A program made the translations under genes and the position numbers. DNA of 64,000 nucleotides. Origin: the human T2T-CHM13v2.0 reference genome, Homo sapiens. The DNA is taken from the NCBI GenBank assembly GCA_009914755.4, contig CP068257.2, positions 25,088,001 through 25,152,000 of the forward strand, in the 5' to 3' direction. Each line of letters starts with the position of its first letter. The first letter of the stretch is position 1. Below the pieces are notes generated by a model, which saw nothing but the letters and a program-made list of their open reading frames with translations, was not told the DNA's origin and did not search any database. Below are positions 38,555-38,945 of this stretch, piece by piece.

Positions 38555-38945
38555 TTTTTGTGACCCATGATCTGACACGTGATCTCTGTCTGTAGAACAG
38601 AATACTAGAAATTGGAACCAACCTAGAAAACTATAGATATACATTTTATATATATGTGCAATGTATTTTATATATAAATAAATTATATAAATATATAATT
38701 TATATATGCATTATATATGCAATATATAATTATTATATAATGTATATATAGTACATATATGTATATATTATGCAAACTATAGATATTACATTATGTATAT
38801 TATATATGTTGCATTTTACATATAAAATATATGTTTTTCATATATATATATATAATGCAACATCTATAGTTTTCTAGGTTGGTTCCATTTTTTAGTATTC
38901 TGTTCTACAGACAAAGATCATGTGTCAGATCATGGGTCACAAAAA
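38555..38945. other. AT-rich palindrome: 85-bp inverted arms (81 of 85 matching) around a ~221-bp TA-rich spacer
   Basis: Left arm 38555-38639 is tttttgtgacccatgatctgacacgtgatctctgtctgtagaacagaatactagaaattggaaccaacctagaaaactatagat. The reverse complement of 38861-38945 is tttttgtgacccatgatctgacacatgatctttgtctgtagaacagaatactaaaaaatggaaccaacctagaaaactatagat. Confidence 0.85.

What the first reader, a model, noticed from the sequence alone, without database searches (positions are those of the whole stretch)
38555..38945. 391-bp AT-rich palindrome (85-bp arms, 221-bp TA-rich spacer) next to an L1 and Alu cluster
Two 85-bp arms are reverse complements of each other with 4 mismatches. They enclose a spacer that is more than 80% A+T and has partial internal symmetry of its own. 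I cannot place the arm sequence (gtgacccatgatctgacacgtgatc...) in any repeat family, and I see no clear target-site duplication. This is either an uncharacterised MITE or a locus-specific palindrome of the PATRR type. Palindromic AT-rich repeats extrude cruciforms. They are known hotspots for double-strand breaks, translocations and deletions, and for cloning or assembly errors. That makes this the most structurally unusual element in the window.
Basis: seen in the sequence. Interest (0 to 1): 0.6.

Follow-up and report, generated by a model that had tools for sequence, protein, structure and literature searches.

The report
AT-rich spaced inverted repeat, PATRR-like
Two real 84-bp inverted copies of one sequence flank 223 bp of very AT-rich DNA in a primate genome, but the middle is not symmetric, so this is most likely an ordinary local inverted duplication and not a transposon or a proven chromosome-breakage hotspot.

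Summary
The inverted repeat is real. Arms 38555-38638 and 38862-38945 are 84 nt with 4 mismatches (95%), separated by 223 nt that is 87% A+T. As single-stranded DNA, 38500-39000 folds at -122 kcal/mol (z = -18).

The element is not a near-perfect palindrome. The spacer is no more self-complementary than shuffled sequence (42 of 500 shuffles score as high). Hairpin energy is 55% of the half-duplex energy. That matches two inverted Alu pairs (53%, 48%) and a MADE1 copy (47%) in the same window. Published PATRR11 alleles reach 79-95%.

The arm has no other copy in the 64 kb. The best target-site-duplication candidate (9 of 10 nt) arises in 8% of flank shuffles.

The left arm sits exactly at the centre of a perfect 34-bp AT palindrome (17+17 nt, chance about 1e-7). 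A similar AT unit precedes the right arm.

My reading is a locus-specific inverted duplication: the right arm was copied into a broken or stalled AT hairpin inside an AT-rich tract beside a truncated L1.

It has PATRR-like layout (AT-rich centre, less AT-rich ends, AT-rich flank) but fails central symmetry and the >90% AT criterion. Genome-wide copy number, orthologues and population variation could not be tested. Interest is low.

The parts
38225..38478 (+). Context: truncated L1 3'-region fragment that abuts the AT-rich tract
   Evidence: It is 70% identical over 162 nt to a second copy at 3980-4141. Recognising it as an L1 3' region is from my own memory of the consensus. Sequence read.
38490..38554 (.). 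AT-rich left flank (83% A+T, degenerate TA repeat). Its last 17 nt are unit A1 (38538-38554, ATATATATAAAATGTAT).
   Evidence: Composition. TRF finds a (TA)n-like array at 38501-38546. A1 is a perfect reverse complement of 38639-38655 (pair I14).
38555..38638 (+). Left arm U' (84 nt, 63% A+T). I infer it is the derived, inverted copy.
   Evidence: E = 1e-34 to the other arm. It is flanked on both sides by a perfect 17-nt inverted repeat. The chance of that is 8e-8, and the next-best flanking stem for any 84-nt placement in this tract is 4 nt.
38639..38655 (.). Unit A' (ATACATTTTATATATAT), the perfect reverse complement of A1. A1 and A' joined would form a perfect 34-bp AT palindrome, which the left arm interrupts.
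   Evidence: (pair I14).
38639..38861 (.). 223-nt AT-rich spacer (87% A+T): a mosaic of degenerate TA, 11-, 17-, 22-, 31- and 53-nt repeats. It is not significantly self-complementary overall.
   Evidence: The central 20 bp contain 3 G/C.
38774..38872 (.). Nested small quasi-palindrome. 38774-38800 is an inverted copy (24 of 27) of 38846-38872, which is unit A3 plus the first 11 nt of the right arm. 38774-38856 is also a gapped direct repeat of the left arm's inner junction, 38628-38699.
   Evidence: pair I5. In one search the alignment score is 76, no mononucleotide shuffle reaches it (0 of 1000), and other AT-rich pieces of the locus score 44-66.
38845..38861 (.). Unit A3 (tatatatataatgcaac), a diverged direct copy of A1 that immediately precedes the right arm. 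I propose it was the homology used for strand invasion or template switching.
   Evidence: Direct reading. Repeat family D5 (38535-38562 against 38841-38868). Gapped alignment.
38862..38945 (+). Right arm U (84 nt, 67% A+T). I infer it is the ancestral copy, continuous with unique sequence and a MIR-like element to its right.
   Evidence: The arm contains a 12-bp tandem duplication at 38915-38939, mirrored at 38561-38585 in the left arm. Recognition of the MIR is from memory.
38546..38555 (.). Left half of the only TSD-like direct repeat (AAAATGTATT). Its partner is 38942-38951 (AAAATTTATT).
   Evidence: 9 of 10 identical. It is not significant: 237 of 3000 composition-matched flank shuffles do as well.

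Best explanation
This is a locus-specific spaced inverted repeat (a quasi-palindrome). A local inverted duplication made it inside an AT-rich, TA-microsatellite-like tract that sits between a truncated L1 fragment and older unique and MIR-like DNA.

Proposed sequence of events (inferred, not shown):
1. The ancestral locus read L1 - AT tract - A3 - U - unique DNA. The AT tract contained the perfect 34-bp palindrome A1.A'.
2. A break or a stalled, disengaged 3' end arose at the tip of the A1.A' hairpin. That 3' end ends in an A-type unit.
3. The end annealed to the similar unit A3 next to U and copied 84 nt of U.
4. It was rejoined without homology at the outer end.
5. The result is A1 - U'(inverted) - A' - AT tract - A3 - U, which is the observed order.

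A smaller event of the same kind, 27 nt long, left the nested palindrome at 38774-38872.

The element has no evident function. Physically it offers an 84-bp stem that can pair only if about 390 nt are single-stranded at once. It also offers a 223-bp, 87% AT core that should melt under negative supercoiling in preference to extruding a cruciform.

Its expected behaviour is therefore that of an ordinary long inverted repeat plus an AT-rich slippage-prone tract. That means length polymorphism in the centre and perhaps occasional deletions, not PATRR-grade translocation activity.
For: - Shown: the arms are real and are unique within the window.
- Shown: the left arm is bracketed exactly by a perfect 17-nt inverted repeat (chance 8e-8; the next-best flanking stem for any 84-nt placement in the tract is 4 nt). 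A diverged direct copy of the same unit precedes the right arm.
- Shown: a nested 24-of-27 inverted copy re-uses the arm/AT boundary.
- Shown: there is no significant TSD.
- Shown: the four arm differences include a CpG transition. The arms have therefore evolved independently and are not a fold-back sequencing artefact.
- Shown: the spacer is not symmetric beyond chance. Gstru/(Gds/2) is 0.55, against 0.98 for a perfect mirror image of the left half. The window's inverted Alu pairs give 0.53 and 0.48 and MADE1 gives 0.47.
- Literature: central symmetry is required for extrusion, and a 9-bp spacer abolishes it (PMC1851657). AT-rich imperfect inverted repeats denature instead of extruding, and loops above 100 bp are not even considered extrudable (PMC3834812). 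Inverted Alus with a 52-bp spacer no longer stall eukaryotic forks (PMC7999016). Inverted repeats with arms of 30-120 bp and spacers of hundreds of bp are common: 656 in one human contig (PMC5414712).
Against: - No orthologous or allelic sequence could be obtained. Which arm is ancestral, and the break-and-copy order, are inferences from anatomy alone.
- Genome-wide copy number of the arm is untested.
- A weak TSD-like repeat (9 of 10) exists.
- The arm divergence of 4/84 has a wide confidence interval (1.3-11.7%), giving an age of about 11-49 My depending on the rate used. Age alone does not exclude an old mobile element.
- Reference assemblies are known to misrepresent AT-rich palindromes: the PATRR8 reference allele is a cloning artefact (PMC4255720). 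The asymmetric centre seen here may therefore not represent the population.
Confidence: 0.62

Rival explanations
1. It is one copy of an uncharacterised or unrecognised MITE (a non-autonomous DNA transposon) with 84-bp terminal inverted repeats, an AT-rich interior and a 9-10-bp (Mutator-like) or 8-bp (hAT-like) target-site duplication.
For: It has long terminal inverted repeats, is small (391 bp), is AT-rich inside and has no coding capacity. A TSD-like direct repeat AAAATGTATT/AAAATTTATT (9 of 10) abuts the ends. Absence of a second copy in 64 kb says little for a family of a few thousand copies.
Against: - The TSD candidate is not significant: it appears in 7.9% of composition-matched shuffles.
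- The termini show no canonical superfamily motif (direct reading).
- The arms are 95% identical, against 82% for the MADE1 copy in the same window (Fisher p = 0.015). From general knowledge, MADE1 belongs to one of the youngest DNA-transposon families in anthropoid primates.
- The perfect 17-nt stem that brackets only the left arm, and the A-type unit before the right arm, are not expected from transposition.
- No paper in the library contains any arm 15-18-mer.
Confidence: 0.12
2. It is a genuine, so far unnamed PATRR. In the population the locus carries longer, nearly perfect symmetric alleles that extrude cruciforms and break at the centre. The sequence in this window is then an asymmetric or rearranged allele, or an assembly or cloning derivative.
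For: Three architectural features listed for translocation-associated PATRRs are present: a length of several hundred bp, an AT-rich centre with less AT-rich ends, and a further AT-rich region on one flank (PMC4255720). The central 20 bp have only 3 G/C, as in PATRRs (PMC1851657). PATRRs are hypervariable, and the reference PATRR8 allele is an artefact. The nested and direct partial copies suggest a history of rearrangement in the centre.
Against: - In the sequence given, 57% of the element (the 223-nt centre) is not symmetric beyond chance.
- Overall AT content is 78%, against more than 90% for PATRRs.
- The hairpin-to-duplex energy ratio is 0.55, against 0.79-0.95 for PATRR11 alleles.
- Flanking primers for PATRR8 and PATRR22 are absent from the window, so it is neither of those loci. 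Its size and composition do not fit PATRR8 (97-99% AT) or PATRR17 (about 190 bp).
- No rearrangement data are available.
Confidence: 0.12
3. It is an assembly, cloning or sequencing artefact (a fold-back chimera) and not real genomic structure.
For: Palindromic and AT-rich DNA is prone to cloning deletions and chimeric reads (PMC4255720; PMC4057610).
Against: Artefactual fold-backs give identical arms. Here the arms differ at four positions, including a CpG-to-CpA change. The junctions are embedded in a structured set of AT units.
Confidence: 0.03
4. It is a hairpin-RNA locus. When transcribed it would give an 84-bp dsRNA stem that acts as a substrate for ADAR editing or small-RNA production.
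For: The stem would be long and nearly perfect in RNA as well (inferred).
Against: No Rfam family reaches threshold. There is only a sub-threshold, composition-driven mir-4536 match in the AT core at 22 bits against a gathering score of 76. There is no evidence of transcription and no CpG island in the window. The 223-nt loop is unlike known precursors.
Confidence: 0.03

Closest known systems
Long inverted repeats (LIRs) / quasi-palindromes of the human genome, as catalogued by tools such as Lirex and IRF
   Same: The arms are at least 30 bp, more than 85% identical and above 20% GC. The spacer is under 2 kb and the element lies among repeats. It meets the LIR definition in PMC5414712. One listed example there has 122-bp arms, 4.7% mismatch and an 811-bp spacer.
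   Different: It is not built from two interspersed repeats such as an inverted Alu pair. It is built from a duplicated unique segment across an AT-rich tract. It does not meet the 'recombinogenic' criteria quoted there from Lobachev et al., which are a spacer under 20 bp and an arm-to-spacer ratio above 16. Here the spacer is 223 bp and the ratio is 0.38.
Palindromic AT-rich repeats (PATRR11, PATRR22, PATRR17, PATRR8)
   Same: It is several hundred bp long, has an AT-rich centre with less AT-rich ends, and has an extra AT-rich flank on one side. It has no sequence homology to other PATRRs, which is also true among the PATRRs themselves.
   Different: PATRRs are near-perfect palindromes with 0-10-bp loops, 98-100% arm identity and more than 90% AT. 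This element pairs only over the outer 84 bp per arm (43% of its length), has a 223-bp non-symmetric centre, and is 78% AT. It has no known association with translocations. It most resembles, and is more extreme than, the asymmetric PATRR11 alleles that rarely extrude or translocate.
MADE1 and other palindromic MITEs
   Same: It is small and non-coding, with inverted terminal arms that make up much of the element. A genuine MADE1 copy lies at 8701-8805 in this window for comparison.
   Different: It has no significant TSD and no TA or TTAA target. No second copy was seen. Its arms are much better conserved than those of MADE1 (95% against 82%). Its 223-bp microsatellite-like interior is unlike MADE1's compact hairpin.
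Locus-specific human palindromes that act as insertion or deletion hotspots (the 180-bp palindrome on chromosome X near SOX3; the 160-bp palindrome upstream of beta-globin)
   Same: These are single-locus inverted duplications of otherwise unique DNA, of the same order of arm length, and are thought to break at the hairpin tip (PMC7999016).
   Different: Those are described as compact palindromes of 160 and 180 bp in total, and both have documented pathogenic rearrangements. This element has a very long AT-rich loop and no known rearrangements.

Membership tests
PATRR | Palindrome several hundred bp long | tested here: met
   391 bp from the outer end of one arm to the outer end of the other.
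PATRR | Nearly perfect symmetry with no (or only a few bp of) central spacer | tested here: not met
   Only the outer 84 nt of each side pair (95%). The 223-nt centre is not symmetric beyond chance (42 of 500 shuffles). Gstru/(Gds/2) is 0.55, against 0.98 for a perfect mirror image and 0.79-0.95 for published PATRR11 alleles.
PATRR | AT-rich centre with relatively non-AT-rich ends | tested here: met
   The spacer is 87% A+T, the arms are 63-67% A+T, and the central 20 bp have 3 G/C.
PATRR | Overall AT content above 90% | tested here: not met
   77.7% A+T over the 391 bp. The criterion is as stated in PMC4940405 and PMC7999016.
PATRR | A further AT-rich region flanking the palindrome | tested here: met
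   38490-38554 is 83% A+T, while the right flank is 58.5%.
PATRR | Constitutional translocation or rearrangement breakpoints at its centre; size polymorphism in the population | not testable with these tools
   No human variation or breakpoint data are available. Flanking primers for PATRR8 and PATRR22 are absent from the window, so it is not either of those loci.
MITE (non-autonomous DNA transposon) | Terminal inverted repeats | tested here: met
   84-nt arms at 95%.
MITE (non-autonomous DNA transposon) | Target-site duplication directly flanking the terminal repeats | tested here: inconclusive
   The best candidate is 9 of 10 (AAAATGTATT/AAAATTTATT). It is matched by 7.9% of composition-matched flank shuffles and 1.5% of random placements.
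MITE (non-autonomous DNA transposon) | Many dispersed copies in the genome | not testable with these tools
   There is no second copy in the 64-kb window. Scans of the metagenome, prokaryote-genome and viral collections found nothing. A MADE1 control, run only on the viral collection, also found nothing, so that scan at least is uninformative, and none of these collections holds a primate genome.
MITE (non-autonomous DNA transposon) | Arm divergence compatible with the age of DNA-transposon activity in the host lineage | tested here: inconclusive
   4/84 mismatches (95% CI 1.3-11.7%) give 11-49 My. This is significantly less diverged than MADE1 in the same window (9/49, p = 0.015). The upper bound overlaps the last known activity, which I place at about 37-40 My ago from general knowledge.
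Long inverted repeat (LIR, Lirex definition) | Arms of at least 30 bp, identity above 85%, GC above 20%, both copies within 2 kb | tested here: met
   84 bp, 95%, arm GC 33-37%, 223-bp spacer. Definition from PMC5414712.
Recombinogenic LIR (Lobachev-type criteria quoted in PMC5414712) | Spacer under about 20 bp and a high arm-to-spacer ratio (above 16) | tested here: not met
   The spacer is 223 bp and the ratio is 0.38 (criteria).

The most novel reading that the evidence does not exclude
The locus is a young or 'proto' PATRR caught in the making. Recurrent break-and-copy events at AT hairpin tips are building a palindrome outward from a TA-rich tract. In the population, some alleles are long and symmetric enough to extrude cruciforms and seed deletions, insertions or translocations. 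That would give a worked example of how PATRRs originate and would add a rearrangement hotspot.
Probability: 0.1. Interest if true: 0.6.

Novelty: new member of a known kind. Interest (0 to 1): 0.22.

Why it matters
As it stands, this is one more long inverted repeat with an AT-rich spacer. That class is common in primate genomes, so it matters little.

Its modest value is anatomical. The left arm sits exactly in the centre of a perfect 34-bp AT palindrome. Together with a nested smaller inverted copy at the same boundary, that reads as a scar of hairpin-tip breakage or template switching. It yields a precise, testable prediction for outgroup genomes.

If population data showed symmetric long alleles or clustered breakpoints, the locus would become an example of how PATRR-type hotspots are born. 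It would also be a site to flag for structural-variant calling and assembly quality.

Tried and rejected
1. I looked for other copies of the arm. Nothing was found in the window or in the metagenome, prokaryote-genome and viral contig collections, using two or three different arm patterns. A MADE1 positive control, run on the viral collection only, also gave 0, so that scan at least cannot measure copy number in a primate genome.

2. I tried to fetch allelic or orthologous DNA through encoded ORFs. Four exact look-ups of window ORFs found nothing on record. A homology search with the 47-aa peptide encoded by the right arm plus its flank found no candidates.

3. I tried to identify the locus. 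There are no Rfam genes and no CpG island. The long stop-free segments look like L1 remnants or noise.

4. I tried matching to known PATRRs. A full-text search for arm 15-18-mers gave 0 papers. PATRR8 and PATRR22 primers are absent. Papers that would carry details of PATRR3, PATRR17 and the 9p PATRR (PMC4102306, PMC2818517, PMC1310899, PMC3378763, PMC3746749) are not held. Identity with a minor named PATRR on chromosomes 1, 3, 4 or 9 is therefore not formally excluded.

5. I considered that the spacer is a degraded copy of a once-perfect palindrome. Its symmetry is not above chance. Deleting the 146-bp block 38639-38784 gives a more compact 245-bp quasi-palindrome, but that still reaches only a 0.68 energy ratio. 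This is speculative.

6. I rejected the functional-RNA and promoter readings. There are only sub-threshold mir-4536 hits, and the bacterial promoter scan is at chance level and not relevant to a primate genome.

7. I tried to place the arm in a transposon family from memory (Tigger2-like and MER2-like termini). The partial matches were short and unconvincing, so I make no claim.

Full report
**Observation**

The region contains a genuine inverted repeat. The arms are 38555-38638 and 38862-38945. They are 84 nt long with 4 mismatches (95.2% complementary) and are separated by 223 nt. One arm finds the other at BLAST E = 1e-34 and finds nothing else in the 64 kb. Pattern searches allowing 3 mismatches find only the two arms, with 0 expected in shuffles.

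The arms are 63-67% A+T, the spacer is 87.4% and the whole element is 77.7%. The left flank 38490-38554 is 83% A+T and the right flank is 58.5%. Folded as single-stranded DNA, 38500-39000 gives -122.4 kcal/mol, against -40.6 +/- 4.5 for shuffles (z = -18), with the two arms forming the main stem.

**What is not confirmed**

The element is not a 391-bp palindrome in the strict sense. The spacer aligned to its own reverse complement scores 110, against 89 +/- 14 for dinucleotide-preserving shuffles, and 42 of 500 shuffles do as well. Half-against-half local alignments, direct or inverted, are also within the shuffle range. The 80% identity in the naive self-alignment is what AT-rich low-complexity sequence gives by itself.

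I used the hairpin-versus-duplex measure of Kato et al. (PMC3197554), computed with ViennaRNA DNA parameters:

| Sequence | Gstru/(Gds/2) | Source |
|---|---|---|
| This element (Gstru -115.4, Gds/2 -211.2 kcal/mol) | 0.55 | |
| Perfect mirror image of its left half | 0.98 | |
| Inverted Alu pair 12063-12879 | 0.53 | |
| Inverted Alu pair 61396-62150 | 0.48 | |
| MADE1 copy 8701-8805 | 0.47 | |
| Unique 391-bp controls | 0.06-0.13 | |
| Published PATRR11 alleles (recomputed by me from the paper's Table 1) | about 0.79-0.95 | |

The published values were computed with mfold, so only the ratios are comparable, and only roughly. The element is as hairpin-prone as an ordinary inverted Alu pair in its own neighbourhood and far from PATRR grade.

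**Anatomy**

Reading left to right, the locus contains:
- an Alu on the minus strand at about 37925-38215;
- an L1 3'-region fragment at about 38225-38478;
- an AT-rich tract at 38490-38554 that ends in unit A1 (38538-38554, ATATATATAAAATGTAT);
- the left arm U';
- unit A' (38639-38655, ATACATTTTATATATAT);
- the remainder of the AT-rich spacer;
- unit A3 (38845-38861, tatatatataatgcaac), a diverged direct copy of A1;
- the right arm U;
- about 30 nt of unique sequence, then a MIR-like stretch (recognised from memory);
- an Alu starting at 39119.

A1 and A' are perfect reverse complements (pair I14). The left arm therefore interrupts, exactly at its centre, what would otherwise be a perfect 34-bp AT palindrome. 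The chance of a 17-nt perfect stem directly bracketing a given segment in this composition is about 8e-8. For all other 84-nt placements in the tract, the longest such stem is 4 nt.

Inside the spacer, 38774-38800 is an inverted copy (24 of 27) of A3 plus the first 11 nt of the right arm. This gives a nested 99-bp quasi-palindrome (pair I5). The same stretch is a gapped direct repeat of the left arm's inner junction (38628-38699 against 38774-38856). Its score of 76 is above all 1000 mononucleotide shuffles and above the 44-66 seen between other AT-rich pieces of the locus.

Both arms carry the same 12-bp tandem duplication, which therefore predates the arm duplication.

**MITE or local duplication?**

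No clear target-site duplication exists. The best candidate is AAAATGTATT/AAAATTTATT (9 of 10), overlapping the A-run at the right end. It appears in 7.9% of composition-matched flank shuffles.

The window supplies its own benchmark. A real MADE1 MITE at 8701-8805 has arms with 9/49 mismatches, significantly worse than 4/84 here (Fisher p = 0.015).

The arm divergence (JC 0.049, 95% CI of p 1.3-11.7%) corresponds to 11-49 My depending on the rate used. The dating argument against an old transposon is therefore suggestive, not decisive.

The asymmetric bracketing of only the left arm by A1/A', and the A-type unit in front of the right arm, are not what transposition leaves.

Copy number in the genome, which would be the decisive test, could not be measured. 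The searchable DNA collections are prokaryotic, viral or metagenomic, and they returned nothing for the arm. A MADE1 control on the viral collection also returned nothing. ORF-based look-ups and a protein homology search also found nothing.

**Proposed mechanism of origin (inference)**

A 3' end generated at the tip of the A1.A' hairpin ends in an A-type unit. It could come from centre-break cleavage or from a stalled nascent strand.

That end can anneal to the strand complementary to A3. Extended from there, it copies U. In top-strand coordinates this yields A1 | U' - A' - spacer - A3 - U, which is exactly the observed order. The inner boundary of the duplication then falls in A-type homology, and the outer boundary is an abrupt junction.

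The nested 27-nt inverted copy at the same A3|U boundary suggests the process happened more than once.

This is the same family of events discussed for palindrome formation and for centre-break repair: template switching, and microhomology or NHEJ junctions (PMC4057610; PMC1851657).

It makes a sharp prediction. An outgroup lacking the event should have one arm (the right one) and a contiguous ATATATATAAAATGTATATACATTTTATATATAT.

**Expected behaviour**

S-type cruciform extrusion at physiological salt starts with opening 8-10 bp at a symmetric centre. A 9-bp spacer plus four nearby mismatches abolished extrusion and E. coli instability of PATRR22 (PMC1851657).

In competitive superhelical calculations, asymmetric PATRR11 alleles (mean loop 41 bp, 95.7% match) extrude with probability 0.006-0.39, because AT-rich imperfect repeats melt instead. 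Loops above 100 bp were not even considered extrudable (PMC3834812).

Inverted Alus with a 52-bp spacer no longer stall forks in eukaryotic cells, consistent with a 100-200-nt Okazaki initiation zone (PMC7999016).

With a 223-bp non-symmetric loop, the 84-bp arms here should pair only when about 390 nt are single-stranded. The AT core should act as an easily melted, slippage-prone tract. I therefore expect microsatellite-type length variation and at most occasional deletion, not PATRR-like translocation activity.

**Comparison with known classes**

The element meets the definition of a long inverted repeat: arms of at least 30 bp, identity above 85%, GC above 20%, both copies within 2 kb. This class is abundant, with 656 in one human contig (PMC5414712). 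It fails the recombinogenic criteria quoted there (spacer under 20 bp, arm-to-spacer ratio above 16).

It shares three architectural traits with PATRRs: length, an AT-rich centre with less AT-rich ends, and an AT-rich flank (PMC4255720). It fails near-perfect central symmetry and the >90% AT criterion.

It is not PATRR8 or PATRR22, because their flanking primers are absent. It does not fit PATRR17 in size or PATRR8 in composition. Identity with one of the minor named PATRRs on chromosomes 1, 3, 4 or 9 could not be checked, because those papers are not held.

**Other readings**

A fold-back artefact is unlikely because the arms differ at four sites, including a CpG transition.

A hairpin-RNA gene has no support. 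Nothing in Rfam reaches threshold, and the only near-hit is a composition-driven mir-4536 match at 22 bits against a gathering score of 76 in the AT core.

**Caveat**

AT-rich palindromes are often misrepresented in reference sequences: the database PATRR8 allele is a cloning artefact (PMC4255720). The asymmetric centre seen here may therefore not be the common allele. That is the basis of the 'proto-PATRR' reading, to which I give about 10%.

**Verdict**

This is a real, non-chance, probably locus-specific spaced inverted repeat, generated by inverted duplication within an AT-rich tract. It has PATRR-like layout but not PATRR properties. It is a new member of a known and common kind, of low interest unless population or comparative data show symmetric alleles or clustered breakpoints.

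Noticed in passing
window 8701-8805: A MADE1-type palindromic MITE (TTAGGTTGG...CCAACCTAA) with 49-nt arms at 82% complementarity and a 7-nt loop. I used it as an internal benchmark for how diverged a genuine primate MITE's arms are.
   Followed up: partly
window 12063-12379 / 12553-12879 and 61396-61715 / 61823-62150: Two inverted Alu pairs with gaps of only about 173 bp and about 107 bp between the Alus. Their arms are 83-86% complementary over 113-175-nt ungapped stretches. 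Their hairpin-to-duplex energy ratios (0.53, 0.48) match that of the AT-rich element, so the element is not uniquely hairpin-prone in this window.
   Followed up: partly
window 38469-38493: GTTTTGGTTAAAGGGTACAAAAAC follows the point where the L1 fragment breaks off. From my memory of the L1 3' consensus, it looks like the next roughly 20 nt of L1 in inverted orientation, bounded by GTTTT/AAAAC. That would be a possible micro-inversion next to the AT tract. It is not verifiable with the second L1 copy in the window.
   Followed up: partly
window 38704-38758, both strands: A sub-threshold Rfam match to mir-4536, an AT-rich palindromic miRNA precursor family, at 22 and 21 bits against a gathering score of 76 (E = 0.26 and 0.44). 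It is almost certainly driven by composition.
   Followed up: no
window 38915-38939, mirrored at 38561-38585: A 12-bp tandem duplication (AGATCATGTGTC AGATCATGGGTC) lies inside each arm. It is present in both arms, so it is older than the inverted duplication.
   Followed up: no
window 35181-35231, 36343-36409, 37855-37900: Long (TG)n/(CA)n microsatellites lie beside Alus. The first two are in opposite orientation about 1.1 kb apart, and they dominate the list of inverted repeats for the window.
   Followed up: no
window about 4300-4700: This sequence resembles an LTR12-type solo LTR (TGTGAAGAGACCACCAAACAGG...), recognised from memory only. If correct, it places the window in a catarrhine primate. 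No CpG island and no convincing exon were seen anywhere in the 64 kb.
   Followed up: no
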